The notes: generated by a model not told the origin, from the sequence alone. A stretch of 64,000 nucleotides of DNA from Candidatus Nanopelagicales bacterium (GCA_044375955.1 JBILLS010000001.1:189942-253941); one strand, 5' to 3'; positions 24,351-64,000 are shown, numbered from the stretch's first letter. A program made the numbers and translations.

Positions 24351-24360
24351 GGTCCTGCGC

Positions 24361-25053: not shown

Positions 25054-25094
25054 TCCGCACACCCGAATCCGAACACCCCTGCGGAACCGTGGGT

Positions 25095-25110
25095 CGCTCC
25101 CGCGGGAGCG
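25095..25110 (+). terminator. Perfect 16-nt GC palindrome after the methyltransferase gene
   Basis: cgctcccgcgggagcg, followed by ...ggctagtttcgt. Confidence 0.4.
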
Positions 25111-25160
25111 CCGCCGGTTCGGCTAGTTTCGTAAAGCCACTTCTACGTGAGGATTTCCCC

Positions 25161-27667: not shown

Positions 27668-27767
27668 CGGGGAGTAGCCAGGCACGCTCCCGGTTGAGGA
27701 CGCACTTCGGAAACGGTCGGAAGCGGTCGTCGCTGGTACTGTGATGTGACGCATGTGGGAGGTGTCG

Positions 27768-29285: not shown

Positions 29286-29335
29286 CGCCCCCGAGGAGCC
29301 CTTGGGGGCCTCACTCGGCGACCTAGACTGACGAG

Positions 29336-40751: not shown

Positions 40752-40844
40752 GGGAACCTCCTGGGGAAGGGGTTACAGATGTTACTGGAGGGGCAGGGGT
40801 TCTGTCACCTCGCCCTCGAGTCCCTCCCATCAAGGGGCCGGCCG

Positions 40845-42071: not shown

Positions 42072-42139
42072 GGCCAGCCCCTTCGGCGAACGTTGCTACT
42101 GAGGGTAGTACCCGAGAGCAGGAAAGTCCTGATTGGCGG

Positions 42140-43498
42140 ATGCGAACCCATTGCCCCGACGGCCCGGGTCTTTCGGGCTGGCTGACCTACGATGCTTGCG
42201 TGCCAGCTCCTAACCGAGTGTCTGTGTCGGCTTCCTGGTACCTGTCTGCCCTGGCGGTAGGGCTCGTGCTCGCCCGTTACGCGGGATACCTCTGGTACGA
42301 GGTGCCGGTGGTCTTCGGCCAGGCGGCCAACATCCTGGTGACCTTCGCCTTTTTCGCTGTAGCCCTACTCCTGTGGATCCCCGTGCGCGCGTCTTCGCGA
42401 GCGCGAGGGGGCCTCGCCTTGTTCCTCGGCCTGATGGCAGTTGCGTGGGTTGCCCACTTGGTCCTCTACCGGTACCACGGGGATTCCTTCAACTACACCG
42501 CTCTCCTATACCTGCCGATCCTCGTCATGGTCTGGTGGAAGCCGCCGTCGGCACGTGAGGCATGGACCGCGGTGTCGGCATTCGCCTGGACGGCCTCTTT
42601 GGTTCTCGTCGTGACCAGAGTTCTCGAGGCGGTGGGGAGCCTGGACATCAAACAGCAAATGCAGGGGGTAATTGCGTTCGACGAGGAGAGGTACTTCCTC
42701 CCCTTCAACGAGGCCCTCGGTATAGATGGTCGATGGCCGGGGCCGTTCGGGCACAACGGCGACACCGCCATGATGGGTGCCCTACTCGTCGTCATCGCGT
42801 TCGCCCACTGGCGCCGTTCCTCCTGGGTCTTTCTCACGGTGGGTGTGGGGACACTGCTCCTCACCGACGGCCGCGCATCGATCGGTGCGATGGTGGCGGG
42901 CCTCGTCGTGATTGCCAGTCTCACCACGTCCGGCCCCTTCGCCAGAATTCCTCGCTGGGTTCGGATCACCGCTGGCAGTGTCGTGCTTGTCGCCGGTGCG
43001 ATCTTCATGGCACTCCGGCCGGCGGGAGTGACGGGGCGGGACAGCATCTGGCCGGCGTTTCTCGACCTGTGGGCCTCCTCTCCGTGGATCGGCGTTGGAG
43101 GAATAGGTATCGCGACCGAGGGAGGGATCGCCCAACAGTTCGGCCATGGGCACAGCCTCTACATCGATGAACTCGCTCGCTGGGGCCTCGTCGGGTTCCT
43201 CACGCAATTCACGGCAATTGCTGTCGGACTCATCATTGCCGCTCGAGCTGCCGGTCGTGGTGTTCCAGGACCCATCGCCGTGATGCTCGCATTCCTCATC
43301 ACGGGCATCACCGAGCCGCGGAACAGCTGGATCGAACCGTCCATGACCGGATTCCTGCTGATCCTCATGACCCTAACCGCATCCGGAATCCTCGACCGCG
43401 GATCCGTGGACGCCGGGAGGGCGTCAGCCGGAGACCTAGACTCGCAGCGTGCTCGGGGAGTTGTATCGACGACGGGCCCTGATCTGGGCATTCGCTAA
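42140..43498 (+). CDS. O-antigen ligase/polymerase family (Wzy_C-like) membrane protein
   Basis: Polytopic. GHGHSLYIDELARWGLVGF block. Start uncertain: GTG 42056 would overlap the neighbouring gene start, so ATG 42140 or GTG 42200 is more plausible. Confidence 0.65.
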   Translation: MRTHCPDGPGLSGWLTYDACVPAPNRVSVSASWYLSALAVGLVLARYAGYLWYEVPVVFGQAANILVTFAFFAVALLLWIPVRASSRARGGLALFLGLMAVAWVAHLVLYRYHGDSFNYTALLYLPILVMVWWKPPSAREAWTAVSAFAWTASLVLVVTRVLEAVGSLDIKQQMQGVIAFDEERYFLPFNEALGIDGRWPGPFGHNGDTAMMGALLVVIAFAHWRRSSWVFLTVGVGTLLLTDGRASIGAMVAGLVVIASLTTSGPFARIPRWVRITAGSVVLVAGAIFMALRPAGVTGRDSIWPAFLDLWASSPWIGVGGIGIATEGGIAQQFGHGHSLYIDELARWGLVGFLTQFTAIAVGLIIAARAAGRGVPGPIAVMLAFLITGITEPRNSWIEPSMTGFLLILMTLTASGILDRGSVDAGRASAGDLDSQRARGVVSTTGPDLGIR

Positions 43499-44249
43499 CC
43501 GCGACTTCGCAACCCGATACCGGTCCTCCATCCTCGGATGGGCGTGGTCGCTCATGCAGCCGCTGGCGACCCTTCTCGTTTATGCGGCTGTTTTCAGCCT
43601 GGTATTCCGCATCCAGGCCCCGCCCCTCGGTTCAGACCCCGACAGGACGAATTTCGCGGCCTTCCTCTTCACGGGCATGGTGGCCTTCAACCTGTTCTCC
43701 AGCCTGCTCATGCTGTCTATGACCCAGCTGAAGTCGAATGGTGAGCTGCTGCGCAAGGTGCACTTTCCAGCCTGGACACCCATCCTGGGCGCCAGCGTGG
43801 TGCAACTTGTCCAGGTTGGACTCGAACTCGTCGTTCTGGTCGGCATGTACCTGTGGCTGGGCAACATCGGCATCAGCTGGTTGCTCGTGCTCCCCGTCCT
43901 CCTTGCTACCGCGCTCTTCGGGCAAGGCGTCGGCCTGCTGCTTACGGTCCTCAATGCCCGCTACGGAGATGTGCAATACATCGTTCAGGTGGTGCTGCAA
44001 GCCCTCTACTTCCTCACCCCGATCCTCTACCCCTTGTCCCTGGTTCAGGGAACTGCGGATTGGCTCGCGGTGATTGTGGAGGCCAACCCGCTCACCTGGT
44101 TCGTCGAGACCATGCACCAGATCATGTATTCGCTCGTGGTTCCCGAGTGGTGGGTGGTTCCGGGGCTGCTTGCGCTCGGGTTCGCAGTCTTCTGGCTGGG
44201 CTTCACCGTGTTCAACCGCACGAGCGAGGACATCGGAGAACTGCTATGA
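43449..44249 (+). CDS. wzm: ABC-2 type polysaccharide export permease
   Basis: 266 aa. N-terminus ...ALIWAFANRDFATRYRSSILGWAWSLMQPL. Six hydrophobic segments. Confidence 0.85.
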   Translation: MLGELYRRRALIWAFANRDFATRYRSSILGWAWSLMQPLATLLVYAAVFSLVFRIQAPPLGSDPDRTNFAAFLFTGMVAFNLFSSLLMLSMTQLKSNGELLRKVHFPAWTPILGASVVQLVQVGLELVVLVGMYLWLGNIGISWLLVLPVLLATALFGQGVGLLLTVLNARYGDVQYIVQVVLQALYFLTPILYPLSLVQGTADWLAVIVEANPLTWFVETMHQIMYSLVVPEWWVVPGLLALGFAVFWLGFTVFNRTSEDIGELL

Positions 44250-45463
44250 GCCAACAGATGGCGGTGCAGCTGACCGGTGTGGGCAAGCGATTCATGCGCC
44301 ACGCCGATCGCCGCAGCACTCTCAAGGAGCGCATAGTCCGAGGTCGTTCCCGCACGACACAGGACTTCTGGGCCGTTCGCGACGTGAACCTGGACATCCC
44401 GCGCGGGAGCGTCTACGGGCTGATTGGCCATAACGGATCGGGTAAGTCAACGCTGCTGAAGCTCATCACCGGCATCTACCGCCCGACCGAGGGACGCATC
44501 ACTGCTCACGGCCGAGTTGCCGCGCTCATCGAGCTCGGTGCTGGTTTCCACCCCGATATGACCGGACGCGAGAACATCCGCCTCAATGGTTCGATCCTCG
44601 GGCTGAGCAGGTCGGAAATCAACGAGGCGATGGACACCATCATCGACTTTTCCGGCCTGCACGAATTCATCGACGATCCGGTCAAGCACTATTCGAGTGG
44701 CATGTACGTTCGATTGGGCTTCTCGGTGGCCGTCCACATGCGCCCCGACGTGCTGCTTGTCGACGAGGTCCTCGCAGTTGGAGATGAAGAGTTCCAACGC
44801 AAGTGCTTCGACTACCTCTACACCCTGCGTAAGGAGGGACGCACGATCATCGTCGTGAGCCACGGTCTGGGTCAACTCGAGGGACTCTGCGACGAAGTCG
44901 CGTGGCTGGACCATGGCGCGGTCCAGGAGATCGGCGCTCCCACATCGGTCATCGCTTCTTACCTTCATAAGGTCAACGCCGATGAAGCGCGCGGCAAGGC
45001 GGGCGCCGCTGCTCACAGGTCCGACGACACGATGCGTGCCGGCAACGGGAGCATCCGCTGCACCGGAATACGACTGATCAGCGCCCAACGCGCCCCCCTC
45101 GATCACGCGGAGACGGGCACCACGGTCGGTCTGTCAGTGGACCTGCGCTGCTTCGAGCAGGTACTCGGCCCGAACATCCGTTTCGCAATTCAGCACGAGA
45201 CGGGTCCGCTGGTCTCGATGGTCAGCAACCATCGCCGAGGGATCGACTTCGGGTATGTCGACGGCAGCCACACCGTGACCGCGTTTCTCACCGACAATCC
45301 GCTGCTCCCGGGCCGTTACCGCGTCCATGTGGACGTCTTCGATCACACGGGCAGTGTGCTGATTGATAACTGGGATGATGCACTCGAGTTCACCGTGCGC
45401 AGTCCTCGAGGCGAGATCGGTCAAGGGGTTGTCGAGTTGCCGTTCACCTACGAGATCACCTGA
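44246..45463 (+). CDS. wzt: Polysaccharide ABC exporter ATPase with C-terminal extension (Wzt_C-like)
   Basis: Internal ATG 44246 of ORF 43853..45463 (ATGA overlap with the wzm stop). Walker A GHNGSGKST, signature YSSGM, Walker B VLLVDEVLAVGD. About 150 extra C-terminal residues. Confidence 0.9.
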   Translation: MSQQMAVQLTGVGKRFMRHADRRSTLKERIVRGRSRTTQDFWAVRDVNLDIPRGSVYGLIGHNGSGKSTLLKLITGIYRPTEGRITAHGRVAALIELGAGFHPDMTGRENIRLNGSILGLSRSEINEAMDTIIDFSGLHEFIDDPVKHYSSGMYVRLGFSVAVHMRPDVLLVDEVLAVGDEEFQRKCFDYLYTLRKEGRTIIVVSHGLGQLEGLCDEVAWLDHGAVQEIGAPTSVIASYLHKVNADEARGKAGAAAHRSDDTMRAGNGSIRCTGIRLISAQRAPLDHAETGTTVGLSVDLRCFEQVLGPNIRFAIQHETGPLVSMVSNHRRGIDFGYVDGSHTVTAFLTDNPLLPGRYRVHVDVFDHTGSVLIDNWDDALEFTVRSPRGEIGQGVVELPFTYEIT

Positions 45464-45465
45464 CC

Positions 45466-47196
45466 GTGCACCTGGCAGAAACCCACCCCCTGATTCGCGC
45501 AAGGCGCCGCGCTGGGCGCATCAAGCGCTGGATCAAGCGACGTTGGTGGGAGCGGCGAATCGGTGAGCAGTACAAGGCATGGCTGGCTGATTCCCGGACA
45601 CGTGAGTCGAGTTCGGTGGATAACGTGATCCCCATCGCAGTGATCGTTCCCGTCTTCAATCCGCCGGTCCGCTTCCTTCACGAGTGCCTGGACAGCGTGT
45701 GTGTGCAGTCGGCTCGAAACTGGCAGTTGATCGTGAGTGATGATGGCTCGAGCGACCCCGACGTGGTCACCTTCCTGGACGAATTCACCCGCACGCACGA
45801 GCAGGATCGGCGGATCGTCGTCATCCGAGCCGCCAATGGGGGGATATCGGCGGCGCAGAATCGCGGACTTGAAGCAGTGACCTGCGACTACTTTGGATGG
45901 CTCGACCACGATGATCAACTCGATCCCCGAGCCATCGAGATGATGAGCGAGGTGATCCACGGGGAGGCTCCTCGCCCACAGGTGGTCTACTCGGACGAAG
46001 ACAAGATCGATTCCGCTGGTCGACACTACGAGCTGTACTGCAAACCCGATTTCTCACCGGAATTGCTCCTGACTCAGATGTATCTGTGTCATTTCACCGT
46101 CTTCGAAACGGCCCTGGTGCGTCGTCACGCAGGCTTCCGCAGCTCCATGGATGGCGCCCAGGATTTCGACCTCGCCCTCCGGTTGCTGCCCGAGCTGACC
46201 CGGGTGACACATATCCCGAAACCGCTGTACCACTGGCGTGCATGGAGTCAGTCGACGGCGCTCACCATCGATGCCAAGCCGTGGGCGCAGTCAGCTGGAG
46301 CAGCAGCACTTCAGGCCTACCTGGACGGCCAGGGCGGCGGTGTTGTTCAGGCCAGCCGATACCCCGGACTCAATGACGTGCACCCGCGTGTCAGCACACC
46401 ACCGCCCGTATCCGTGATCATCCCCACTATCGGGACACGGGATCGCGGTGCGGGAACCCGACTCGTGGACCGTGCGATCGCGACGCTGCGGGCAGCAGAG
46501 TCACACGTTCCTCTCGAGGTGATTGTGGTCACGACCGGTGAGCTCGACGCGATCCACGGTGCCGACTCTCAGGTGGTGTACCTACCCGACGGTGTGTTCA
46601 ACTTCGCGGCAGCGATCAATCTCGGGCGCGCACATGCCCACGGTGAGTACCTACTCCTACTCAACGACGATGTCACCGCGGACGCACCTGCACCGGTCAC
46701 ACGGATGCTCGAGATCGGTCAGCGCCCAGGCGTAGGTGCCGTCGGAGCCAAGCTGACGTACCCCGACGGGCGACTACAACACGCGGGGATCGTGCTTCTC
46801 CCGAGCGGTCCCACACACGTCCACATCGGAAAGCCGGGAAACCACCCGGGTTACTTCGGATCCACTCTCACCCCGCGCAACTACCTTGCCGTGACCGCGG
46901 CGGCCATGTTGACGCCTGTACGCGCGTTCGATGAGGTGGGCGGGTTCGACACCACTTTCGCGCGGGACTTCAATGATGTTGACTATTGCCTGCGCCTGTA
47001 CTCGCATGGGTATCGCGTAGCGTGGACGCCCTACGCACACCTCACCCACCATGAGGGGGCTTCTATCGTGCGCAAGGCAGCCGACCCCGATGAGTTCCAC
47101 GCATTCCAGAAGCGTTGGGGCGGTCACTACCCGGTCGACCCGTACTACTCACCCGCATTGAATCCTCGACTCGAGCGGATCTACGAGGCGCTATGA
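45466..47196 (+). CDS. Two-domain family 2 glycosyltransferase
   Basis: 576 aa. GT2 block 1 IAVIVPVFNPPVRFLHECLDSV...LIVSDDGSSD. GT2 block 2 VSVIIPTIGTRD...LLLNDDV. Confidence 0.8.
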   Translation: MHLAETHPLIRARRRAGRIKRWIKRRWWERRIGEQYKAWLADSRTRESSSVDNVIPIAVIVPVFNPPVRFLHECLDSVCVQSARNWQLIVSDDGSSDPDVVTFLDEFTRTHEQDRRIVVIRAANGGISAAQNRGLEAVTCDYFGWLDHDDQLDPRAIEMMSEVIHGEAPRPQVVYSDEDKIDSAGRHYELYCKPDFSPELLLTQMYLCHFTVFETALVRRHAGFRSSMDGAQDFDLALRLLPELTRVTHIPKPLYHWRAWSQSTALTIDAKPWAQSAGAAALQAYLDGQGGGVVQASRYPGLNDVHPRVSTPPPVSVIIPTIGTRDRGAGTRLVDRAIATLRAAESHVPLEVIVVTTGELDAIHGADSQVVYLPDGVFNFAAAINLGRAHAHGEYLLLLNDDVTADAPAPVTRMLEIGQRPGVGAVGAKLTYPDGRLQHAGIVLLPSGPTHVHIGKPGNHPGYFGSTLTPRNYLAVTAAAMLTPVRAFDEVGGFDTTFARDFNDVDYCLRLYSHGYRVAWTPYAHLTHHEGASIVRKAADPDEFHAFQKRWGGHYPVDPYYSPALNPRLERIYEAL

Positions 47197-48878
47197 CCCG
47201 GACGAGCTCGGTAGGCGGTCGACCTCTGATGATCGTGGGAAATGAGTCGGTACTCACTCCCGATCGGTTGCGGACCATCAACGAGCGTCTCGATCAGGAT
47301 CCCCGCATCGCGAGCGTCTCCGTCGTTGGCCACCCCGATCCCCAGCAACAGTTCCTCCGTGCGACCGCACCCGCGGGTTGCGCCGTCGTGATCGCCACAG
47401 ACGTCATGGCCCTCACCGGACCGGTGACCGCCTCCGCCACGCCAGCCGACCTCGCATCGTGGGCACGCTTAGCATCCGACCGCGGTCTGTGGCACGACTG
47501 GTGGCTGACTCCCGACGTGGATGTCGCTCGCGCACCCGTTGCCTTTCCGATGTCTCCGGTGGACCGGGTCGAGGTCACCGACGTCACCACGGCCCACCAC
47601 CACGCGATCGGCGAACATGTTGCGGATCCCCATGCGGTGTCGATCACCGTCGATGGAACCTGGCTTGGCCCGCACCAAACCGGGGCGCAGGTTCTCACGA
47701 CGGCCGCACTGGAGGCCCTTGCGGTACACCCGAATATCTCCCGCCTGCGCCTGGTGGGGGTGACCCGTCTACCCGCGTACGCGGCGCATCTGGCCGAGTA
47801 CCCGCGTATCGAGATCATCGAGACGGAGCAGGCAGCGGACGAGGAAACGACCGACGTGATCTGGTACCCCAACCAGATCGACCACCGGGTCGATATCTCC
47901 TACGCACGCTCCCTCGGACGCCGCGTCATCACCACCTACCTGGACCTCATCGCATACGACATCCCCCGTTACCACGCCTCCGAGGAGGCATGGGTGGCCT
48001 ATCGCGCCCTGCAACGGCGTATCGCCCTCAGCGTCGATGGCATCACCACGATCAGCGCGGATGTCGCTCAGCGTCTCCTCCTGGAGGCGCCGCGGCTAGA
48101 TCCCGCGCGCGTTCAGCCAATACCCCTAGGTCTGGATCACATCGCCGCAACGGCCACCGAACCCGGTGAAGACCTCACCTCGCTGCTACCCGCACTCACG
48201 GCACGTCCCTTCGTGCTCGTTCTCGGCAACGACTTCGGTCACAAGAACCGCGACTTCGCAATCCAGGTCTGGGAGCAGGTTCTCGACAGAGGGGTGAGTT
48301 GCGATCTGGTCCTGGCAGGCCTCCATGTCCGGTCAAGTAGCTCGAAAGATGCAGAGGATGCACTGTTGCGCCGCCATACGAATCTCCGCGGATCTGTCCA
48401 CCGCCTCGGTCACGTGGACGCAGCGTCAAGAGAGTGGTTGCTCGAACACGCCGGTGCCGTCCTCTATCCGAGCAGTGCCGAGGGTTTTGGATTCGTTCCT
48501 TACGAGGCAGCGGTCCTGGGAACACCCAGCACGTTCGTGGGTTTCGGTCCTCTGGCGGAGATCTCCGGCGTACCCGACCTTCCCACCCACTGGTCGATCG
48601 ACCAATGCGCCGCAGATCTACAGAGTCTCCTCACGGATCCGGAGTCCGCACGGGGCCGTGTTCGCGCACTCGACGATGCACGCGCGCGGCTCACCTGGAC
48701 CCGCTTCGCTGACGCCCTGGCGGAGTTCATCGTGCACATCGACGCCATGCCGCCGGTCGAAGCAGCATTGGTTTCGGGAACCAGCTCCGACACCGCCCGC
48801 CTTACCGCAGTGCTGAACAGCGCCACGTGGCGCATGACCGCGCCGTTGCGCCGACTGGGAAAGCGCAGGAAGCGCTAG
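47193..48878 (+). CDS. GT4-type glycosyltransferase with N-terminal extra domain and SW[KR]xTAPLR tail
   Basis: Internal ATG 47193 of ORF 47115..48878 (ATGA overlap). EX7E-like block [20 protein letters not shown]. Ends [20 protein letters not shown]. Confidence 0.8.
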
Positions 48879-49738
48879 CGACCAAGTAGTCGCAGGAGGT
48901 AGTCCCCGTAGCCGCTCTTGACCAACGACTGGGCCAGAACCGCTAGCCCCTCATCGTCGATCCACCCGTTGCGCCACGCAATCTCCTCGATGCACCCGAC
49001 TTTGGTCCCGGTGCGGTCCTCCATGACACGCACGAACTCCCCCGCGTCCTGGAGCGACCGGAAAGTGCCCGTATCGAGCCACGCAGTGCCTCGCTCCAGC
49101 AAGGTCACACTGAGTCGCCCCTCGTGGAGGTAGTACTCGTTGACCGCGGTGATTTCGAGTTCACCACGCGCGGATGGCGTGATGCTCTTGGCGACATCGA
49201 CCACCGTGGAGTCGTAGAAATACAGGCCGGGTACCGCGAAGTTGCTCTTCGGCTGGGCTGGCTTCTCCTCGATCGAGAGCACCGTCCCCGCAGCATCGAA
49301 TTCCACGACCCCGTACTCCGACGGGTTCGCCACCTCGTAGGCGAAGACATGGCCGCCGGCGACGGAGGTCAGCTCGGAAAGTCGACGTCCCAGTCGCGGC
49401 CCGTAGAAGAGGTTGTCACCCAGGATCAATGCTGCCGAGTCGCCTGCGAGAAACTCTTCCGCGATCAGAAACGCCTGGGCCAAGCCTTCGGGCCGGGGTT
49501 GCACGGCGTAGGCGAGCGACATGCCCAGCGGTGCCCCGTCGCCGAGGAGACGAGAAAAGGCCGGCGAATCCTCCGGTGTGGTGATGACGAGGATTTCGCG
49601 GAGCCCGGCCGCCATCAACGTGGCCAGCGGGTAGTGGATCATCGGCTTGTCATAGACGGGGAGCAACTGCTTGCTCACGCCCTTGGTGATCGGCCACAAC
49701 CTGCTGCCGGTTCCACCGGCCAGGATGATGCCCTTCAC
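48875..49738 (-). CDS. rmlA: Glucose-1-phosphate thymidylyltransferase
   Basis: 287 aa. [38 protein letters not shown]. Confidence 0.95.
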
Positions 49739-50598
49739 GAGCCCAGGCTATCGCTGTTCCGGGGAGCCAATCCGCGAGCGCTCCCGCGCACCTTGGCCCA
49801 CCGATCACCCTCCAGGAGCAGGCCGAGGGACTGATTCACGACCACGCGCCGCATCGTGCGTAGGGCATGACGTGGCGACATCCGAAACTCGGCGGGCAGC
49901 AGCGAAAGTCGATTACGTATCATCGACGCGCGCCGCTCGGGAGAGTGACCGGTGACTAACACATCACGACCGAAAACCGTCACCGAGTTCGCGGCACCGA
50001 GTTGGTGTTCCAGGACCGTTCCCGGAACCAGCCCGATCTGGTATCCACGCTCACGTAAACGCAAGCAGGCAGCGGCATCCACCGCGTCGATTCCTAGTCG
50101 CTCGTCGAATCCACCGACCCGGGAGAGCGCGGCGACGTTCCATGCGGTTCCGGTCTGGATGATCTCCTCAGTGGTGGGCAGGCCATCGAAGTTGCCCGAG
50201 ACGGGATAGTGCATGTTCCCGGAAGTCAGTGATATTCGTTCGGTACCGAGTGCGCCGAAGGTCGAATCACCCACCAATTCGATCGCATTCCGCATCTCGA
50301 CGAGGTAATCGCGTGAAACCTCAGTGTCCTGGTCGAAGGTGAACAGCCACGACGCTCCGATCTCGAGCGCGTAGCGAAGCCCGTCATTGAGTCCGCGTGC
50401 GATTCCTGCATTCGCCCGGTGACGCACGACGGTCACGACATCGGACTCTACGTCTCGTAACACGTCATCACTGCTGCACGGACTCGCGTCATCACTGACG
50501 AGCAGGGGCATGTCCGAAGCAAGCACATCGATCAGCCGGCGAAGTGATGTGTCCTCGGGATGGAATGTGGGAATCACCGCGCACATGCTGGAGAACAC
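49735..50598 (-). CDS. Family 2 glycosyltransferase (rhamnosyltransferase-like)
   Basis: 287 aa. [10 protein letters not shown]...LLVSDDASP...FTFDQDT. Its stop overlaps the rmlA start (ATGA). Confidence 0.75.
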
Positions 50599-52670: not shown

Positions 52671-52738
52671 TTATCGAGGTTAACAGAGCACCTATTGCCT
52701 TGAAGTCGCGCGTGAGACCCCTAGCAGATCCGTGAGCC

Positions 52739-54718: not shown

Positions 54719-54731
54719 CGAATGCTGCTAG

Positions 54732-55415: not shown

Positions 55416-55420
55416 CAGCT

Positions 55421-57337: not shown

Positions 57338-58342
57338 GTGGCTGAAGTGCGGCGGGCATTCATCACTGGCGTGACAGGCCAGGATGGCTCTTACATGGCG
57401 CAGCAATTGCTGGAAAAGGGCTACGAAGTGCACGGCCTGGTGCGACGCTCGAGCACATTCAATCGTTCGCGCATCGATCATCTGCATCATGACGAGCATC
57501 TGCCCGGGAAGAACCTTCACCTGCATTACGGGGACGTGACCGATGCCGCGCGCATGCACCAGCTCGTGTCGGAGCTACGCCCTCACGAGGTCTACAACCT
57601 CGCTGCGCAGTCACACGTGCGTGTCTCCTTTGATGAGCCGCTCTACACGGCGAATGCCACAGGCTTGTCCACGTTGAACCTGTTAGAAGCCATCCGCTCG
57701 GTGGATACCAGCATTCGCTTCTACCAAGCCTCGACGAGCGAGATGTTCGGCGCGTCGCCGCCTCCACAGAATGAGGACACCCCGTTCTATCCACGCAGTC
57801 CCTACGGCGTTGCGAAGGTGTATAGCTACTGGATCACGCGGAATTACCGCGAGGCTTATGACCTCTTCGCAGTCAACGGCCAGTTGTTCAACCACGAGTC
57901 TCCCAGGCGCGGCGAGACGTTCGTCACCCGCAAGATCACCCTGGCGGTCGCGAACATCGTCAAGGGCAACCAGAAAGAATTGTGGATGGGGAACTTGGAC
58001 GCCATCCGCGATTGGGGATATGCCCCCGAGTACACCGACGGCATGTGGCGCATGCTGCAAGCGGATACCCCCGAAGACTTCGTCCTCGCCACCGGCACCG
58101 CATACACCATCAAGGACTTCCTGCACTTCGCTTTCGCGCACGCAGGCCTGGAGTGGCAGGACTATGTAAAGTTCGACCCGAAGTTCCTACGCCCCACCGA
58201 GGTCGACGAATTGATCGGCGATGCATCGAAGGCGAAGAGCATTCTTGGGTGGGAGGCGAAAGTGCTCCCACCGGAGCTCGCCCGGATCATGGTGGACGCG
58301 GACATCGCGCGCCTCGATGGGGCCCCCGAAGGCCAGTTCTAG
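57338..58342 (+). CDS. gmd: GDP-mannose 4,6-dehydratase
   Basis: 334 aa. FITGVTGQDGSYMAQQLLEKGYEVHG, ASTSEMFG, YGVAKVY, FNHESPRRGETFVTRKI. Confidence 0.9.
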   Translation: MAEVRRAFITGVTGQDGSYMAQQLLEKGYEVHGLVRRSSTFNRSRIDHLHHDEHLPGKNLHLHYGDVTDAARMHQLVSELRPHEVYNLAAQSHVRVSFDEPLYTANATGLSTLNLLEAIRSVDTSIRFYQASTSEMFGASPPPQNEDTPFYPRSPYGVAKVYSYWITRNYREAYDLFAVNGQLFNHESPRRGETFVTRKITLAVANIVKGNQKELWMGNLDAIRDWGYAPEYTDGMWRMLQADTPEDFVLATGTAYTIKDFLHFAFAHAGLEWQDYVKFDPKFLRPTEVDELIGDASKAKSILGWEAKVLPPELARIMVDADIARLDGAPEGQF

Positions 58343-58348
58343 TCGCCT

Positions 58349-59344
58349 GTGTCGAGTCGGATGCGTGCGCTCATCACCGGTGCAGCCGGTCAGGACGGCA
58401 CGATTCTCGCCGCACACCTGACTCGTAACGGTGTTTCGGTCACTGGCCTGATCAAGCCGGGAACCGATCGCGATCGGCTGATGCGTTACGCACCGCCGGT
58501 ATCGATGGTTGATGTCGACCTTGCGGATGTCGAGGGTGTCCGAGCCGTGATCCGAGATGTCGAGCCCACGCACATCTGGAACTTGGGCGGATTCACTGCT
58601 CCTGGGGAGTCCTGGGAACACGAGCAGGAGATCCAGCGCATCAACGTAGATGCAGTTGCAGCCATGCTAGAGGCGGCGGGAGGACTGACCACGCCTGCGC
58701 GCTTCTTCCAAGCATCCTCATCTCACATATTCGAGGGAACTGATCGATCACCGCAGGACGAGACTTTCGAGTTGTCGCCCAGCAGCCCGTATGCCCGCTC
58801 CAAGGCCGAAGCCCTCACCCTGGTCCGTCGGTACCGCGAGGAGAAGGGGCTATTCGCGGTCTCGGGGATTCTGTACAACCATGAGTCACCACTGCGAGGC
58901 GAGAACTTCGTGACCCGCAAGGTCAGCATGGCGGTGGCGCGCATCGCTCAGGGGCTCCAGGGCAACTTAGAACTCGGGGACATCGAGGTCGCGCGCGATT
59001 GGGGCTGGGCTCCCGACTACGTGCGTGCCACGCTTCTCATGCTGCAGGCCGACACACCACGCGACTACGTCTTGGCAACTGGCATCTCCCATCGACTGTC
59101 CTTCTTCGTGCAGAAGGCCTTCGCTGCTGTCGGCATCCAGGACTGGCAGTCCTACGTCGTGTCGCGGGAGAGCGATCGCCGGGTGGATACGAACAAGATG
59201 GTGGGTGACTCCCGCTCTGCTTACCGGGATCTTGGGTGGCGACACACTGTCGACTTCGACAGCATCGCCGCCCGCATGGTCGAACACGACCTACGCCTGC
59301 TGCAATACCCCGATGCGCTGTGGTCCGACCCCTGGATGGACTAG
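58349..59344 (+). CDS. Gmd-family short-chain dehydrogenase paralog (candidate GDP-4-keto-6-deoxymannose reductase/epimerase)
   Basis: 331 aa (GTG 58349 or ATG 58361, MRALITGAAGQDG). Keeps YNHESPLRGENFVTRKV and YARSK, but has ASSSHIFEG where Gmd has ASTSEMFG. Confidence 0.7.
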   Translation: MSSRMRALITGAAGQDGTILAAHLTRNGVSVTGLIKPGTDRDRLMRYAPPVSMVDVDLADVEGVRAVIRDVEPTHIWNLGGFTAPGESWEHEQEIQRINVDAVAAMLEAAGGLTTPARFFQASSSHIFEGTDRSPQDETFELSPSSPYARSKAEALTLVRRYREEKGLFAVSGILYNHESPLRGENFVTRKVSMAVARIAQGLQGNLELGDIEVARDWGWAPDYVRATLLMLQADTPRDYVLATGISHRLSFFVQKAFAAVGIQDWQSYVVSRESDRRVDTNKMVGDSRSAYRDLGWRHTVDFDSIAARMVEHDLRLLQYPDALWSDPWMD

Positions 59345-60465: not shown

Positions 60466-60529
60466 CGTTGTACCTGCCTCGCGAGTGTGTGGCCGCAGCC
60501 CCCTCGGCGGGTTGGCCTAGCCTACTGAG

Positions 60530-63500
60530 GTGGTCAGCAGGGTTTCCTACGCCCAAAATGGCGAGGATGTTCGTCTCTGGCACGCCTTCGGGCCCCGCAG
60601 CACGTCATCGACGAACCTCGTGTTCGTCGATGTGGGTGCGAACGAGCCGCGACACATGTCCGTCACCGCGGCACTCAGTGACCTTGGCTGGCGCGGCTTG
60701 CTGATCGAAGCGGATCCGTTGCTCGCCGAGCGACTGCGCAACGAGCGCCCCCAGGATCACGTCGTCGAAGCCGCCGCATCCGATCGATCGGGTGAGATCA
60801 CGTTCTACCGAGTTCCCGGCACCGGATTGGGCACCCTCGACGCGGTCGAGGCCAACGCCGCCCGCGATCGTGGCTTCGACGTCTTCGAGGTCCGCGTGCC
60901 CACCCGCACCCTCGACGACATCCTGGATGACTACACAGCCATGCTCGGCCCCGACATCCACGCGATGACCATCGACGTCGAGGGCGCGGAAGCACAGGTC
61001 GTCGCGGGTCTCACCCGCTACCGACCCTGGGTCCTCTGCATCGAGGCGGTGGAACCCGGAACACCCACGGCCAGCCACCAGCAGTGGGAAGGCGCGGTGC
61101 TCGACCATGGGTACCGATACGTGGCCTTCGACGGCATCAACCGTTGGTACGTGGCCGACGAACACGCGGATGAGGACGTCGGGATCGACGCGGGAGCACC
61201 GACTGGAACCACGATCGCGGAGGCGATCGCCACCCCATTCCACGTCATCGACGCGGGAGCACACGGCTGGACCACCGTCGACACCGCTCACCTACGGGAG
61301 CGTGACAACCGTTCCTACAACCGAGTGGCCTGGCAGCGCGAGCTCACCTGCAACGACCTCGCCTCCCGGGTTCCCACGGAGGAATATGAACGGCAGATCC
61401 ACGAGTTGCGCGCCGCGCTGATCAGCGTGGAAGGCAGCCGTACCTTCGCACTCAGCCGTAACCTCGCCAAGGTGGCGAAGGCCGTGCGAGCCCCGATCCA
61501 GCGATTCATCACCCGTGTCGCCCGTACGCCGTGGGTGACCAGGCAGCGGCACCTGCGTCACGTGACCGTCAACATGGGCCACCTCACCGACCCCGCCTTT
61601 CTGGGGTCGAGCGCGGACCAGCCACCCTCGGACGTCCCAGGAACGATCCCTGGCGTCTTCACGGAGGCGGATCAGCGCTCCGTCCGAGCGTGGCTCGAAA
61701 CCCACTCTGAGGACAGCGATGAGCAACTGTTCGCCCGGCTCGACAACAACAACGACGAACTCGGTCGTCTCCGCGCCGCACTGCGTACGCGGCTCCGTCT
61801 CTCAGACGGCGAGCCCGCCGGAACCCGCCCCGGATCCCAGGTGGCCTTCGATGCGCGGGCGTTGCAGAGCGCTGCCTTTAGTCGCCGGGGGATCGGTCGC
61901 TTCGCGGCGGCCGCCCTCGTCGCCTCGCGCCAGGCGGTGGGTGATGACCGGGTCACGTTGATCGCGGACCCGGGACTCGCTCCGATACCCGAGGAACTGG
62001 CCGGGGCATGTCGTCAGGTGCCACGCATCACCCGGGCACAGGTCCGCGAGTTCGGTGTCGTGATCCAGCCGTCTCCGATGACCCATGCACCGGATCCGTT
62101 GATACCTCTCCTCCAGTCCGATGCCTACAGCGTGGCGATCGTCTTCGACTTCATTCCCCTGCACTATCCCGGCGTCTACCTGCGCAGTGCAGCCGCGAGT
62201 GCCGAATACGCCGCCTGCCTGGACGCTTTGCTTGCTTACGACGACTTCCTCTGCATCTCGCACACCGTCCGTGAGGAGCTCATCCGGATCTGCGAACGGC
62301 GTGGCCGTCCGGCGCCCAGCACTGCGGTCGCCTGGCCCCGAGGGACTATCGCGAATACCCGAGCTGCTCATTCCTCTCGCGGCATAGAAGGAAAACGAAA
62401 GCATGCGACCGGCCCGATAGTCGTCGTCACCGGTGACGATGCTCGCAAGAACACATTCGGTGGGCTGGCCGGCGTCGCCGCGGCAACCTCGAACCTTCCT
62501 CTCCGCGATGTGGTGGTGCTCGGCATGTCCGGACACAACGATCGCGTGCACCACTGGTCCATCGCCGCTGCGATGCGTCCCGGTGAAGCGCGCACCGCGC
62601 AGCGACTCACTGAGGACGAGATGGTCACCCTGCTGGGCTCGGCCGCGTGCGTGGTGGTGCCCACCTTCGACGAGGGCCTTTCCCTTCCGGTGATCGAGGC
62701 GGCCGCCCAGGGCGTCCCGGTGGTGGTCTCGGACATTCCGGCGCACCGGGAACTCGTGGGACGCGGAGCGTTCTCCGCTGACCCCCGCAGTCCCCGCAGC
62801 CTCGCGCGCGCGGTCCGCCGTGCGCGGCGGGATCGTTCGATCGCACAACGCCAATGGCAACGACTCCAGCACCACCGCCATGTGGATCTTGAGGACGCGA
62901 TCACGACTCGACTCCGCGCGCACTCGACATCCCCGATCACCACGGGGGACACCGCCGCGATGCCCTCGCCGACCGACAGCCCGCGTCTGCGGGTCGCCCT
63001 GGCCACCCCGTGGCCACCGCAGCGGTCCGGTGTCGCGGATTACACGGCGGCCACCGGCCGCGCCCTGGCTCGCCTGAGTGACGTCACGGTGTTCACCACC
63101 GCCGATGCGCGGCTCGACTTTGCGGGCGAGGACCGCGATATCCGCGGACAACGATCAATCGAGGAGTTCCTCGCCGATCCCGAGGGCGTCGCCGCCGACT
63201 TCGACGTCGTCGTCGCCGTGGTGGGCAACAGCCACTTTCACCTGCCCTTCATCGACCTCGCCCGCAACGTGGGATGCGTCGTCATCGCGCACGACACCCG
63301 GATGAGCGAGTTCTACCTCGCCCTGCGCGGCCCCGGGGGTCTCGCGAACCTCATGCTGCACAGTGCCGATCCCTCGGCACCGAAGTCCATCACGCCACCC
63401 ATCGATCACCAGGTGGATGACATGCGGCTGTTGCAGAACGCGGCTCTTTGGGAGATCGCCCGGCGCGCCCACACCCTCGTGCTGCACTCGCCCACCTCGG

Positions 63501-64000
63501 CGCAGCGGATCGCAGACCAAACTGATGTATCGCCGGTGGTGCTCACCTTCGCTAACTATCGCGCGCCTGCGAATGGGGATCTCGACCCCGCCGCACGCGC
63601 GGCAGCCCGCGCGCGACTGGGTCTGGTCGCCGAAGGTGACGACGTGATCCAGCTGGGAACCTTCGGGTTCGTGGACACCCGCACTAAGCAGATCGACTCG
63701 GTTCTCGAAGCCGCAGGCTGGTTGACCCAGTGGGGTCACGCGGTCCGGCTGACCGTGGTGGGCTCGGCACCACCCGAGCTCGAAAAGGAACTGCGGGAAC
63801 GCGCTGGTGAACTTGCCCTCGAGGGATTTGAAGTGACCGGCTACCAGGACGAGGAGCACTACCGCGACTGGTTGCTCGCGGTCGACCTCGGGGTGCAGTT
63901 GCGGGTGAGCCCCTACCTCGGTGTCAGTGGACCGCTATCCGACCTGGCGGCCGTGGGCACACCCGCGGTCGGCTCAGCAGGATTGTGCGCGGACGTGGAC
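60530..64000 (+). CDS. Multidomain FkbM-family methyltransferase + helical linker + two GT4-type glycosyltransferase modules; 3' end lies beyond the window
   Basis: Absent from the ORF track because it has no stop inside the window. The frame is open from TAG 60518-60520 to 64000. From GTG 60530: VSRVSYAQNGEDVRLWHAF..FVDVGANEPRHMS..IDVEGAE (FkbM hallmarks). Then FDEGLSLPVIEAAAQGVPVVVSD (EX7E). Then a second GT-B start, RLRVALATPWPPQRSGVADYT. Confidence 0.8.
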   Translation, partial: MVSRVSYAQNGEDVRLWHAFGPRSTSSTNLVFVDVGANEPRHMSVTAALSDLGWRGLLIEADPLLAERLRNERPQDHVVEAAASDRSGEITFYRVPGTGLGTLDAVEANAARDRGFDVFEVRVPTRTLDDILDDYTAMLGPDIHAMTIDVEGAEAQVVAGLTRYRPWVLCIEAVEPGTPTASHQQWEGAVLDHGYRYVAFDGINRWYVADEHADEDVGIDAGAPTGTTIAEAIATPFHVIDAGAHGWTTVDTAHLRERDNRSYNRVAWQRELTCNDLASRVPTEEYERQIHELRAALISVEGSRTFALSRNLAKVAKAVRAPIQRFITRVARTPWVTRQRHLRHVTVNMGHLTDPAFLGSSADQPPSDVPGTIPGVFTEADQRSVRAWLETHSEDSDEQLFARLDNNNDELGRLRAALRTRLRLSDGEPAGTRPGSQVAFDARALQSAAFSRRGIGRFAAAALVASRQAVGDDRVTLIADPGLAPIPEELAGACRQVPRITRAQVREFGVVIQPSPMTHAPDPLIPLLQSDAYSVAIVFDFIPLHYPGVYLRSAAASAEYAACLDALLAYDDFLCISHTVREELIRICERRGRPAPSTAVAWPRGTIANTRAAHSSRGIEGKRKHATGPIVVVTGDDARKNTFGGLAGVAAATSNLPLRDVVVLGMSGHNDRVHHWSIAAAMRPGEARTAQRLTEDEMVTLLGSAACVVVPTFDEGLSLPVIEAAAQGVPVVVSDIPAHRELVGRGAFSADPRSPRSLARAVRRARRDRSIAQRQWQRLQHHRHVDLEDAITTRLRAHSTSPITTGDTAAMPSPTDSPRLRVALATPWPPQRSGVADYTAATGRALARLSDVTVFTTADARLDFAGEDRDIRGQRSIEEFLADPEGVAADFDVVVAVVGNSHFHLPFIDLARNVGCVVIAHDTRMSEFYLALRGPGGLANLMLHSADPSAPKSITPPIDHQVDDMRLLQNAALWEIARRAHTLVLHSPTSAQRIADQTDVSPVVLTFANYRAPANGDLDPAARAAARARLGLVAEGDDVIQLGTFGFVDTRTKQIDSVLEAAGWLTQWGHAVRLTVVGSAPPELEKELRERAGELALEGFEVTGYQDEEHYRDWLLAVDLGVQLRVSPYLGVSGPLSDLAAVGTPAVGSAGLCADVD

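What the first reader, a model, noticed from the sequence alone, without database searches (positions are those of the whole stretch)
60530..64000. Unlisted >1157-codon ORF fusing an FkbM methyltransferase to two GT4 glycosyltransferase modules (candidate cap-and-polymerise enzyme)
The + frame that starts at 60530 has no stop from TAG 60518-60520 to the end of the window. I spot-checked about ten lines codon by codon. The track lists no ORF in that frame across 3.4 kb, which fits one continuous ORF that was dropped because it runs off the window. Domain order: FkbM/Methyltransf_21 hallmarks (SYAQNGEDV, VDVGAN, IDVEGAE) at about 60.53-61.2 kb, then a helical linker at about 61.25-61.83 kb. A GT4 module with EX7E follows at about 61.84-62.88 kb, and a second GT-B module starts near 62.98 kb. 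In ABC-transporter-dependent O-antigen systems (E. coli O8/O9a WbdD with WbdA, P. aeruginosa common polysaccharide antigen), a methyltransferase caps the chain and sets its length, and separate GT4 enzymes polymerise. Here both activities appear in one polypeptide, in a Gram-positive high-GC genome, 15 kb from a Wzt with a C-terminal extension. I know of no characterised example of this fused architecture.
Basis: partly seen in the sequence, partly recalled or inferred. Interest (0 to 1): 0.75.

Follow-up and report, generated by a model that had tools for sequence, protein, structure and literature searches.

The report
Fused methyl-capping and sugar-polymerising enzyme gene
This is a real gene for one large protein that probably both builds a cell-surface sugar chain and methylates its tip to stop growth, but the design is common in databases and single-protein enzymes of this kind have already been characterised, so it is a new member of a known kind.

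Summary
The + frame from GTG 60530 is open to the window's end. The full protein is 1,220 aa and would end at 64192. It has an FkbM methyltransferase (aa 1-250), a conserved helical region (250-426) and two complete GT4-type GT-B modules (437-800, 820-1220).

"Cap-and-polymerise" remains the best reading. The gene is syntenic with wzm, wzt (with Wzt_C cap-binding domain), gmd and an rmd-like gene in many actinobacterial MAGs. Split versions (wzm-wzt-FkbM-multiGT4) occur in Azospirillum and Massilia.

The novelty claim fails. WsaE (methyltransferase + two GT domains, Gram-positive), K. pneumoniae O7 ORF6 and O12 WbbB are characterised single-polypeptide terminator-polymerases. More than 120 database clusters share this exact architecture.

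Direct tests: GT module 1 is homologous to E. coli O8 WbdA (E = 3e-12). The methyltransferase is unrelated to WbdD.

The "coiled-coil ruler" is not supported for this protein. It has no heptad signal and its predicted helices are broken. Sister clades carry a long heptad-rich insert at the same position, so this clade is a short-spacer variant. Helix 304-331 is a conserved cationic amphipathic helix and a candidate membrane anchor.

Verdict: new member of a known kind, modest interest.

The parts
60530..64000 (+). MT-GT-GT gene, first 1,157 of 1,220 codons (the gene would end at 64192, outside the window)
   Evidence: Open frame; 100% identical full-length P0001 and gene call on L023; codon-position GC
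60530..61279 (+). FkbM-family SAM-dependent methyltransferase domain (aa 1-250); proposed chain-capping O-methyltransferase
   Evidence: PF05050 68.2 bits, TIGR01444 59.4 bits; pLDDT about 90 and class I methyltransferase fold hits; invariant VDVGAN and DVEGAE motifs
61277..61585 (+). Helical spacer (aa 250-352): helices 250-259, 264-278, 283-301, 304-331, 334-352; fixed length in the clade; occupies the position of a long coiled coil in sister clades
   Evidence: AF2; no indels in 43 homologues; no heptad window >=0.5 here, but strong signal in P0141 and P0137; collinear alignment with P0141
61439..61522 (+). Conserved cationic amphipathic helix (aa 304-331), candidate in-plane membrane anchor
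   Evidence: Family mean net charge +8 (range 5-10); 18-mer hydrophobic moment 0.66, at the 99th percentile of the protein. Function inferred.
61664..61807 (+). Three-helix N-terminal extension of GT module 1 (aa 379-426). With the preceding RHLRHV segment (from about aa 336) it is retained in natural variants that lack the methyltransferase
   Evidence: AF2 pLDDT up to 92; invariant D395, D397, D405, N406, G412, R413; L010-L013 homologues start at residue 336-337
61838..62929 (+). GT4 module 1 (aa 437-800), WbdA-type, with RGIGR loop, GDDARKN motif and EX7E (E715-E723 = nt 62672-62698)
   Evidence: Pfam 49-50 bits alone; GT-B fold, pLDDT about 90; Foldseek hits to MshA, GlgM, ManT, PimB', WaaG; BLASTP to E. 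coli O8 WbdA module 1, E = 3e-12
62987..64000 (+). GT4-like GT-B module 2 (aa 820-1157 in the window, continuing to 1220); LX7D (L1130-D1138) in place of EX7E
   Evidence: Glyco_trans_1_4 34.0 bits against GA 27 alone; AF2 GT-B fold, pLDDT about 80; collinear with module 2 of the Azospirillum 1,257-aa GT; not a recent duplicate of module 1
57338..58342 (+). gmd, GDP-mannose 4,6-dehydratase (precursor supply)
   Evidence: TIGR01472 476.8 bits against 415; 88-91% identical and syntenic in relatives
58349..59344 (+). Gmd paralogue lacking the catalytic Glu (TSE changed to SSH); probable GDP-4-keto-6-deoxymannose reductase (Rmd-like)
   Evidence: TIGR01472 224.7 bits, below the 415 cut-off, plus an RmlD-like hit; motif comparison; PDB Rmd 2pk3 at 4e-25 but Gmd structures score higher; syntenic
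43449..44249 (+). wzm, ABC-2 permease
   Evidence: PF01061 75.7 bits; ATGA overlap with wzt
44246..45463 (+). wzt, ABC ATPase with C-terminal Wzt_C carbohydrate-binding (cap-recognition) domain
   Evidence: PF00005 and PF14524 50.7 bits; best solved relative is A. aeolicus Wzt including its CBD, 4e-62
45466..47196 (+). Two-domain GT2 protein, syntenic member of the locus
   Evidence: Pfam; 60-64% identical and syntenic
47115..48878 (+). GT4 protein, syntenic member of the locus (start codon uncertain)
   Evidence: Pfam; synteny
48875..49738 (-). rmlA, glucose-1-phosphate thymidylyltransferase
   Evidence: TIGR01207 445 bits against 360.65; synteny
49735..50598 (-). GT2 protein, syntenic
   Evidence: Pfam; synteny
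42056..43498 (+). Wzy_C (O-antigen-ligase-like) polytopic membrane protein; candidate extracytoplasmic glycan transferase
   Evidence: PF04932 34.4 bits against 31.7; about 7 TM-like segments. Role inferred.

Best explanation
The ORF is a genuine 1,220-aa soluble or peripheral cytoplasmic enzyme with three catalytic modules. It works in an ABC-transporter-dependent (Wzm/Wzt) cell-surface glycan pathway of an uncultured high-GC actinobacterium. The proposed mechanism is as follows. A lipid-linked primer is made by other enzymes of the locus (a phosphoglycosyl transferase plus adaptor GTs). The two non-identical GT4-type modules then alternate, each adding one linkage type, to polymerise the chain. 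The donor is most likely a GDP-activated sugar from the adjacent gmd/rmd-like genes, giving a D-rhamnan- or 6-deoxyhexan/mannan-like polymer. The N-terminal FkbM methyltransferase O-methylates the non-reducing terminal sugar. That stops elongation and creates the cap recognised by the Wzt C-terminal carbohydrate-binding domain, which licenses export. A cationic amphipathic helix (aa 304-331) probably holds the enzyme at the membrane. Shown here: the gene, its domains, folds and motifs, its synteny, and its homology to WbdA and to a split Azospirillum operon. Inferred: polymerase activity, terminal (as opposed to internal) methylation, donor sugar identity, cap recognition and membrane binding.
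For: The gene is real, and the same fusion is found in at least 120 clusters from separate assemblies. The FkbM domain and both GT modules pass curated thresholds, and their motifs are invariant in 43 homologues. The AF2 model shows a methyltransferase plus two complete GT-B folds, and the best structural matches are retaining GT4 enzymes that use NDP-sugars, including GDP-Man enzymes ManT and PimB'. The order Wzm-Wzt(CBD)-GT2x2-GT4-RmlA/GT2-Gmd-Rmd-like-MTGT is conserved in many MAGs. Gmd is a true equivalog, and its paralogue has lost the dehydratase Glu. Natural split forms place an FkbM protein and a multi-GT4 protein directly after wzm-wzt in Azospirillum brasilense (42% and 27% identity, collinear) and in Massilia, mirroring E. 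coli O8 wzm-wzt-wbdD-wbdA. GT module 1 is homologous to WbdA (E = 3e-12, shared RGIGR motif). The closest solved Wzt is the A. aeolicus transporter, shown to bind a 3-O-methyl cap on a D-Rha/D-Man polymer. Published precedents for the mechanism in one polypeptide are WsaE, O7 ORF6 and O12 WbbB. No TM segments are predicted. The amphipathic helix is conserved.
Against: There is no biochemical evidence for this family. The methyltransferase is not homologous to the prototype terminator WbdD. This protein lacks the coiled-coil hallmark of characterised terminators, so length control, if any, is unexplained. GT module 2 lacks the canonical EX7E motif. Variants without the methyltransferase exist (L010-L013), one with an acyltransferase in its place, so methylation could be a decoration and not an obligatory cap. 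The Wzt CBD is too divergent to check its methyl-binding pocket. The Rmd-like enzyme is closer to Gmd than to solved Rmd structures, and rmlA is also present, so the donor sugar is uncertain.
Confidence: 0.68

Rival explanations
1. The methyltransferase decorates the chain instead of terminating it. It would methylate many or all residues as they are added, as in the mycobacterial 3-O-methylmannose polysaccharide, and chain termination or export would not depend on it.
For: Fold searches recover M. hassiacum MeT1 and the methylmannose-polysaccharide mannosyltransferase ManT among the matches. Variants without the methyltransferase keep the same GT-GT enzyme. The protein has no coiled-coil spacer to keep the methyltransferase away from short chains. 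WsaE methylation was chain-length independent in vitro.
Against: The locus encodes a Wzt with a cap-recognition-type CBD, and this is conserved with the fused gene. All characterised MT/GT arrangements next to wzm-wzt are terminators. MMP synthesis is cytoplasmic and is not linked to Wzm/Wzt. The fold hits to MeT1 are generic class I methyltransferase matches (TM about 0.4).
Confidence: 0.17
2. The GT modules are not a processive polymerase. They would add only one or two specific residues, such as an adaptor or a terminal disaccharide that is then methylated, while the separate GT2x2 and GT4 proteins of the locus do the polymerising.
For: The locus has several other GTs that are equally syntenic: a two-domain GT2 and a 587-aa GT4. 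More GTs lie downstream. GT module 2 lacks EX7E.
Against: The tandem GT4 modules are collinear with WbdA-type polymerases. They show homology to E. coli O8 WbdA module 1 and to the Azospirillum multi-GT4 protein that follows wzm-wzt-MT. The precedents WsaE, ORF6 and WbbB place the polymerase modules in the terminator polypeptide.
Confidence: 0.12
3. The long ORF is an assembly or sequencing artefact that joins separate methyltransferase and GT genes.
For: Separate methyltransferase and GT-GT genes do exist in some genomes.
Against: The identical 1,220-aa protein is called on at least two contigs. More than 120 clusters from separate assemblies (JGI, ENA, NCBI, Logan) at 48-63% identity have the same length and Pfam set. 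The junction region is well conserved and has no indels. Codon-position GC is uniform across the ORF.
Confidence: 0.01

Closest known systems
WsaE of Geobacillus stearothermophilus NRS 2004/3a (S-layer glycan; Steiner et al. 2008, as reviewed in PMC2943079 and PMC3898925)
   Same: One soluble polypeptide with an N-terminal methyltransferase that caps the terminal sugar and two glycosyltransferase domains that make two linkage types of the repeat. Gram-positive organism. Encoded with wzm/wzt, and in WsaE's case directly after them. The loci also share a WbaP-type initiating transferase and a Wzy_C-type transferase (WsaB there, 42056-43498 here).
   Different: WsaE uses dTDP-L-rhamnose to make alpha-L-rhamnosides, which is inverting chemistry. 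The present modules are GT4-type (retaining) and sit beside GDP-sugar genes. Sequence homology could not be tested because neither the WsaE sequence nor the primary paper was available. The family of WsaE's methyltransferase and GT domains was not verified here.
E. coli O8 (K. pneumoniae O5) WbdD + WbdA
   Same: The logic is the same: wzm-wzt, a methyltransferase terminator, and a multi-module GT4 polymerase using a GDP-sugar. GT module 1 is homologous to WbdA module 1 (24% identity, E = 3e-12, shared RGIGR loop).
   Different: There are two proteins there and one here. The WbdD methyltransferase is a Methyltransf_11/25-type enzyme with no detectable similarity to the FkbM domain (E = 5.7). 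WbdD has a long coiled-coil ruler and a C-terminal membrane helix, whereas this protein has no heptad-rich region. GT module 2 has no significant match to WbdA.
K. pneumoniae O7 ORF6 and O12 WbbB (PMC11231755)
   Same: Both are single polypeptides with an N-terminal terminator, a helical spacer and two C-terminal polymerase GT modules, in ABC-transporter-dependent synthesis.
   Different: ORF6 has a methyltransferase-kinase pair, a CBM, a long coiled coil and GT2 modules, and adds a methyl-phosphate cap. WbbB terminates with a beta-Kdo transferase. Both are Gram-negative O-antigen enzymes. Here the parts are an FkbM methyltransferase, a short non-heptad spacer and GT4 modules.
Pseudomonas syringae CPA 'TET operon' and P. 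aeruginosa CPA (PMC7820976, PMC3560663)
   Same: Shared components are gmd + rmd (GDP-D-rhamnose), wzm, wzt with CBD, a WbdA-like GT4 polymerase and an O-methyltransferase terminator. [quoted passage not shown]
   Different: These are Gram-negative LPS systems. The methyltransferase is annotated only as a generic SAM-dependent enzyme.
Azospirillum brasilense MTCC4039 plasmid p5 operon wzm-wzt-FkbM MT (460 aa)-GT (1,257 aa) (uncharacterised; L024)
   Same: True homologues. The methyltransferase is 42% identical over aa 5-214, and the GT is collinear with aa 536-1150 (27%, E = 1e-29), including the RSG(V/I)ADY and VQLR motifs. gmd is nearby. The O-polysaccharide of A. baldaniorum Sp245 is reported to be a linear D-rhamnan (PMC9962177).
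   Different: It is split into two genes, the GT protein has a third GT4 module, and the organism is a Gram-negative alphaproteobacterium. It has not been studied experimentally, and the D-rhamnan report concerns a different strain and species.

Membership tests
FkbM-family methyltransferase (PF05050 / TIGR01444) | HMM score above the curated cut-off | tested here: met
   PF05050 68.2 bits against 22.7, aa 37-200 covering profile 1-173; TIGR01444 59.4 against 37.7
FkbM-family methyltransferase (PF05050 / TIGR01444) | Gly-rich SAM loop (VDVGAN) and the D-V-E-G-x-E motif, within a class I Rossmann methyltransferase fold | tested here: met
   G36, A37, N38 nearly invariant and D149-E154 invariant in 43 homologues; pLDDT about 90 and Foldseek probability 1.0 to class I methyltransferases including sugar methyltransferases TcaB9 and KijD1
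FkbM-family methyltransferase (PF05050 / TIGR01444) | SAM-dependent O-methylation of a sugar hydroxyl | not testable with these tools
   Needs an enzyme assay
GT4 (GT-B, retaining) glycosyltransferases | Glycos_transf_1 / Glyco_trans_1_4 HMM above the gathering score, for each module separately | tested here: met
   Module 1: 49.7 and 49.1 bits; module 2: 34.0 bits against GA 27
GT4 (GT-B, retaining) glycosyltransferases | Two-Rossmann-domain GT-B fold | tested here: met
   AF2 model shows two GT-B units, aa 437-800 and 820 onwards; Foldseek hits to MshA, GlgM, ManT, PimB', WaaG and BshA, target TM 0.54-0.69
GT4 (GT-B, retaining) glycosyltransferases | EX7E motif in the C-terminal domain | tested here: inconclusive
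   Module 1 meets it: E715 and E723 are invariant. Module 2 does not: the aligned positions are L1130 and invariant D1138.
GT4 (GT-B, retaining) glycosyltransferases | Retention of anomeric configuration; donor identity | not testable with these tools
   Needs product NMR
WbdA-type multi-module O-antigen polymerase | Sequence homology to WbdA GT modules | tested here: met
   Module 1 against E. coli IAI1 (O8) WbdA aa 127-431: 24% identity, E = 3e-12, shared RGIGR loop. Module 2 has no significant match to WbdA but is collinear with the Azospirillum WbdA-like protein.
WbdA-type multi-module O-antigen polymerase | Tandem GT4 modules in one chain, encoded with wzm/wzt | tested here: met
WbdA-type multi-module O-antigen polymerase | Polymerising activity, one module per linkage | not testable with these tools
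   Needs in vitro assays
WbdD-type coiled-coil chain terminator | Homology to the WbdD catalytic domain | tested here: not met
   BLASTP against O8 WbdD best E = 5.7; WbdD hits Methyltransf_25/11/23, not PF05050
WbdD-type coiled-coil chain terminator | Extended coiled-coil ruler next to the terminator domain | tested here: not met
   No 28-residue window with heptad contrast >=0.5 in aa 250-352, whereas the same test gives continuous signal in sister proteins P0141 (233-319) and P0137 (204-387). AF2 helices are broken into segments of at most 28 aa with pLDDT 47-65. Caveat: the heptad test is home-made, and no multimer model or dedicated predictor was available.
WbdD-type coiled-coil chain terminator | Membrane-binding amphipathic helix | tested here: inconclusive
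   Candidate helix 304-331: family net charge +8, hydrophobic moment 0.66. It is internal, not C-terminal, and could instead pair with the acidic helix 283-301.
WsaE-type trifunctional methyl-glycosyltransferase | N-terminal methyltransferase followed by two GT domains in one polypeptide, in a Gram-positive wzm/wzt locus | tested here: met
   Architecture. The locus content includes wzm/wzt, Bac_transf initiators and a Wzy_C protein. The WsaE description comes from PMC2943079.
WsaE-type trifunctional methyl-glycosyltransferase | Sequence homology to WsaE | not tested

The most novel reading that the evidence does not exclude
This clade may be a ruler-less, or minimal-ruler, version of the terminator-polymerase design. 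The coiled coil present in sister clades has been reduced to a short conserved helical module with a cationic membrane helix. Chain length would then be set by kinetic competition or by geometry at the membrane, not by a coiled-coil ruler. The methyl-capped GDP-sugar-derived glycan might be transferred by the adjacent Wzy_C protein onto the neighbouring secreted Ig-like (Big_3_5) proteins. That would be an S-layer-style, ABC-transporter-dependent protein O-glycosylation system in uncultured freshwater Actinobacteria.
Probability: 0.12. Interest if true: 0.55.

Novelty: new member of a known kind. Interest (0 to 1): 0.28.

Why it matters
If the reading is right, a large and so far unstudied family annotated only as "FkbM family methyltransferase" is the central enzyme for a methyl-capped cell-surface glycan in abundant uncultured Actinobacteria. 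The family has at least 120 clusters at 90% identity in this clade, plus sister clades. Such glycans are likely determinants of phage and grazer interactions. The family also offers natural variation for studying chain-length control: spacers of about 250, 320 and 360 aa, forms with and without a coiled coil, and fused, split and methyltransferase-less forms. It does not reveal a new principle, because termination and polymerisation in a single polypeptide are already established (WsaE, WbbB, O7 ORF6).

Tried and rejected
1. Artefactual fusion: rejected. The identical protein and more than 120 full-length homologues come from separate assemblies.
2. GT modules as a recent tandem duplication: rejected. 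There is no significant pairwise similarity and only the donor-site motif aligns.
3. Coiled-coil ruler: a family-averaged and a single-sequence heptad scan found no signal in aa 250-352, while positive signals appeared in sister proteins. The fold search of the N-terminal model returned only methyltransferase hits and nothing for the helical part. Pfam found nothing there.
4. WbdD homology: tested against the E. coli O8 locus and rejected.
5. Checking the Wzt methyl-cap pocket: the CBD alone gave no PDB sequence match, so the pocket residues could not be aligned.
6. Firm identification of the Gmd paralogue as Rmd: only partly successful. It scores higher to Gmd structures than to Rmd 2pk3, and the inference rests on the lost catalytic Glu.
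7. Primary WsaE paper (PMC3258933) and the Mann/Kimber/Whitfield 2019 terminator survey (10.1093/glycob/cwz066): not held.
8. Literature searches for a characterised FkbM-type glycan terminator or FkbM-GT4 fusion: nothing found.
9. Naming the organisms of the sister-clade proteins by cluster look-up: no organism names were returned.
10. The window's own genome is not among the GTDB species representatives; the best locus is 55% identical.

Full report
**1. Observation**

Translation of window 60518-64000 (+) shows TAG followed by 1,160 sense codons with no stop. The start is GTG 60530. At 67% GC the chance of such an open frame is about 3e-12. Codon-position GC is 0.72/0.51/0.79, typical of a high-GC coding frame, and the other two + frames have 19 and 26 stops. 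The ORF tool omits it only because it runs off the window.

A 100% identical protein, P0001 (1,220 aa), exists in the public protein collection. It is called on a JGI metagenome contig (sample 3300034118), where the gene is followed by further glycan genes with an overlapping stop and start. In window coordinates the gene would end at 64192, so only 63 residues are missing.

Pfam and NCBIfam place an FkbM methyltransferase at aa 37-200 (68.2 bits against 22.7; TIGR01444 59.4 against 37.7). They also find group-1 glycosyltransferase domains (Glyco_trans_1_4 75.7 bits in two stretches; Glycos_transf_1 60.4 bits).

**2. Anatomy**

An alignment of 43 homologues (48-64% identity) and two AlphaFold2 models give the following layout. 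The full model has mean pLDDT 81.

| Region (aa) | Feature | Confidence / notes |
|---|---|---|
| 1-250 | Methyltransferase | pLDDT about 90 |
| 250-259, 264-278, 283-301, 304-331 | Helices | pLDDT 47-65 |
| 334-352 | Helix | pLDDT 78-87 |
| 353-378 | Variable loop | low |
| 379-426 | Three helices | pLDDT up to 92 |
| 437-800 | GT-B module 1 | pLDDT about 90 |
| 801-819 | Disordered linker | below 50 |
| 820 to end | GT-B module 2 | pLDDT about 80 |

The N-terminal model matches class I SAM methyltransferases, including the sugar methyltransferases TcaB9 and KijD1 and M. hassiacum MeT1. The full model matches retaining GT4 enzymes: GlgM, MshA, the M. hassiacum methylmannose-polysaccharide mannosyltransferase, PimB', WaaG and BshA. 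Its top hit is a multi-module capsule polymerase.

Each GT module passes the Pfam gathering score on its own. Module 1 has invariant RGIGR, GDDARKN and EX7E (E715/E723) motifs. Module 2 has RSGVADY, FG...RTK and LX7D (D1138 invariant). The modules are not recent duplicates of each other. No transmembrane segment is predicted.

**3. The 'linker'**

This region is not a plain spacer.
- It contains many invariant residues: W247, W268, E285, Y286, I290, L293, S303, R304, R340-H341-L342, D405 and N406.
- It has no indels between aa 241 and 360 in 43 sequences.
- A heptad-periodicity scan finds no coiled-coil-like window in aa 250-352, either family-averaged (maximum contrast 0.39 against a protein-wide 95th percentile of 0.43) or on the single sequence.

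P0141 is a collinear full-length homologue from another cluster (32% identity, E = 2e-137). Exactly at this position it carries a much longer, obviously coiled-coil-like insert.

| Clade | Spacer between the MT-end and RGIGR motifs | Heptad signal |
|---|---|---|
| Window's clade | 240-274 aa | none in 250-352 |
| P0141 / P0155 | 319-325 aa | continuous, 233-319 in P0141 |
| P0137 | 361 aa | continuous, 204-387, with a 133-residue Pro/Gly-free run |

The window's family is therefore a short-spacer variant of a methyltransferase, coiled coil, GT, GT design.

Helix 304-331 is conserved as a strongly cationic amphipathic helix. Its family mean net charge is +8 and its hydrophobic moment of 0.66 is at the protein's 99th percentile. 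I infer that it is a membrane-surface anchor. It could alternatively pair with the acidic helix 283-301.

**4. Context and relatives**

*Locus content in the window.*
- wzm 43449-44249 and wzt 44246-45463, joined by an ATGA overlap; wzt has a Wzt_C domain.
- A Wzy_C protein, a two-domain GT2 and a GT4.
- rmlA and a GT2 on the minus strand.
- gmd, a true equivalog.
- A Gmd paralogue whose T-S-E catalytic motif reads S-S-H. It has lost the dehydratase Glu, so I read it as an Rmd-like reductase.

Two WbaP-type phosphoglycosyl transferases lie further upstream.

*Synteny.* tblastn of these proteins against 22 related loci shows the order Wzm-Wzt-GT2x2-GT4-(RmlA, GT2)-Gmd-Rmd-like-MTGT conserved in many Ca. 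Nanopelagicales and Actinomycetes MAGs. The window has extra insertions at 50.6-57.3 kb and at 59.3-60.5 kb.

*Natural module variants.*
- L010-L013 encode a 933-935-aa GT-GT protein that starts at residue 336-337 of the window protein.
- In L010 and L012 a stand-alone FkbM gene lies a few kb away.
- In L011 an AT3-SGNH acyltransferase sits in the methyltransferase's place.
- In Massilia terrae, and on A. brasilense plasmid p5, the order is wzm-wzt-FkbM protein (409 or 460 aa)-multi-GT4 protein. The Azospirillum proteins are 42% identical (methyltransferase) and 27% identical and collinear over both GT modules (E = 1e-29).
- The O-polysaccharide of A. baldaniorum Sp245 is reported as a linear D-rhamnan (PMC9962177).

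*Breadth of the methyltransferase subfamily.* An exhaustive search with the methyltransferase-plus-helix module finds 1,901 cluster representatives at E <= 1e-30. They range from 167 to 3,928 aa and have many C-terminal partners, including 2xGT4, FkbM+GT4, and DUF4214 with or without GT2. N-terminal FkbM fused to variable glycan modules is a common design.

**5. Comparison with prototypes**

I retrieved the E. coli IAI1 (O8) locus wzm-wzt-wbdD-wbdA-wbdB-wbdC.
- GT module 1 aligns with WbdA module 1 (24% identity over about 300 aa, E = 3e-12), including the RGIGR loop.
- The methyltransferase shows no similarity to WbdD (best E = 5.7). WbdD belongs to Methyltransf_11/25/23, not FkbM.

The polymerase part is therefore a WbdA relative, and the terminator is an analogue of WbdD, not a homologue.

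The closest solved Wzt (4e-62, aligned through much of the CBD) is the A. aeolicus transporter. Its CBD specifically recognises a 3-O-methyl cap on a D-rhamnose/D-mannose polymer. The CBD alone is too divergent to compare pocket residues.

**6. Literature**

[quoted passage not shown] It is encoded next to wzm and wzt in a Gram-positive organism (PMC2943079, PMC3898925, PMC9415975).
- K. pneumoniae O7 ORF6 combines a methyltransferase-kinase, a CBM, a coiled coil and two GT2 modules.
- K. pneumoniae O12 WbbB puts terminator and polymerase in a single polypeptide. The authors state that the strategy is widespread (PMC11231755).

No paper describing a characterised FkbM-GT4-GT4 enzyme was found. 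The WsaE sequence and primary paper were unavailable, so homology to WsaE remains untested.

**7. Mechanism and verdict**

The best-supported model (confidence about 0.68) is a peripheral cytoplasmic enzyme that does three things.
1. Its two GT4 modules alternately extend a lipid-linked glycan, probably from a GDP-activated 6-deoxyhexose or mannose.
2. Its FkbM domain methylates the non-reducing end. This stops growth and creates the cap read by the Wzt CBD before export.
3. Length control is unexplained, because the ruler-like coil is missing in this clade.

The rivals are methylation as an internal decoration (0.17), non-polymerising GT modules (0.12) and an artefactual fusion (0.01).

The finding is real, but it is a new member of a known kind. 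It is abundant in databases under the name 'FkbM family methyltransferase', has characterised architectural precedents and has clear split homologues. Interest is modest (0.28). The most useful angle is the natural series of spacer lengths and of fused, split and methyltransferase-less forms, which could be used to study chain-length control. A second angle is the possible S-layer-like glycosylation context, given the Wzy_C protein beside secreted Ig-like proteins.

Noticed in passing
window 50630-57166: About 6.7 kb is inserted relative to syntenic loci, where the GT2 gene abuts gmd. GC drops to 0.59-0.60. The insert holds an ABC exporter with a fused TMD and NBD (52739-54718, minus strand) and four ORFs with no Pfam or NCBIfam hit (372, 309, 227 and 594 aa). 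Homologues of the 372-aa and 227-aa ORFs occur elsewhere in some related loci.
   Followed up: partly
window 59341-60465 (-): A 374-aa protein with about 6 TM-like segments and no family hit is transcribed divergently from the MT-GT-GT gene, with only 64 bp between the two starts. In most relatives it is absent from this position and the Rmd-like gene abuts the MT-GT-GT gene.
   Followed up: partly
window 39498-43498: Two paralogous secreted Ig-like (Big_3_5) proteins with N-terminal signal-like segments (39498-40751 and 40845-42071, minus strand) lie directly beside a Wzy_C / O-antigen-ligase-like membrane protein (42056-43498, +) and wzm/wzt. The layout recalls the WsaB oligosaccharyltransferase and its S-layer glycoprotein target, so these could be glycan acceptors.
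   Followed up: no
window 4416-7607, 22914-31306: The upstream part of the window has two WbaP-type phosphoglycosyl transferases (22914-24350 and 27753-29285), a DUF4012 protein (29336-31306) and three large proteins with weak GH39/GH5-like hits (4416-7607 minus strand, 24516-26411, 26204-27667). More than one glycan pathway may be encoded here.
   Followed up: no
L023 3957-13861 (downstream of the gene, beyond the window): The gene's stop overlaps the start of a CTP_transf_3 cytidylyltransferase. This is followed by GT4, GT2, DUF2304, an epimerase, DUF8201, GT2, GT4 and a protein with a weak Capsule_synth (KpsC/KpsS-like) hit. That hints at a Kdo- or ulosonic-acid-type component in an actinobacterial locus.
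   Followed up: no
L011 3779-5782; L010 17882-18643: In natural variants that lack the methyltransferase, L011 has an AT3+SGNH O-acyltransferase between the Rmd-like gene and the GT-GT gene, and L010 has a stand-alone 253-aa FkbM protein about 5 kb away. This suggests that chain-end or chain-modifying modules are interchangeable.
   Followed up: partly
P0122 (hit): A 3,928-aa protein with 13 separate FkbM-like stretches (30% identity to the window's methyltransferase). This is an extreme tandem array of methyltransferase domains of unknown meaning.
   Followed up: no
P0137, P0141, P0155 (sister clades; L027 for P0137): Collinear FkbM-spacer-GT4-GT4 proteins whose spacers are 319-361 aa and strongly heptad-periodic. 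P0137 has a 133-residue Pro/Gly-free run. The P0137 contig also carries a mycothiol-type MDMPI gene, so it is probably actinobacterial too.
   Followed up: partly
window 44246-44249: The wzm stop and wzt start overlap as ATGA (translational coupling). The mechanical ORF list extends wzt upstream to 43853, which is not the real start.
   Followed up: yes
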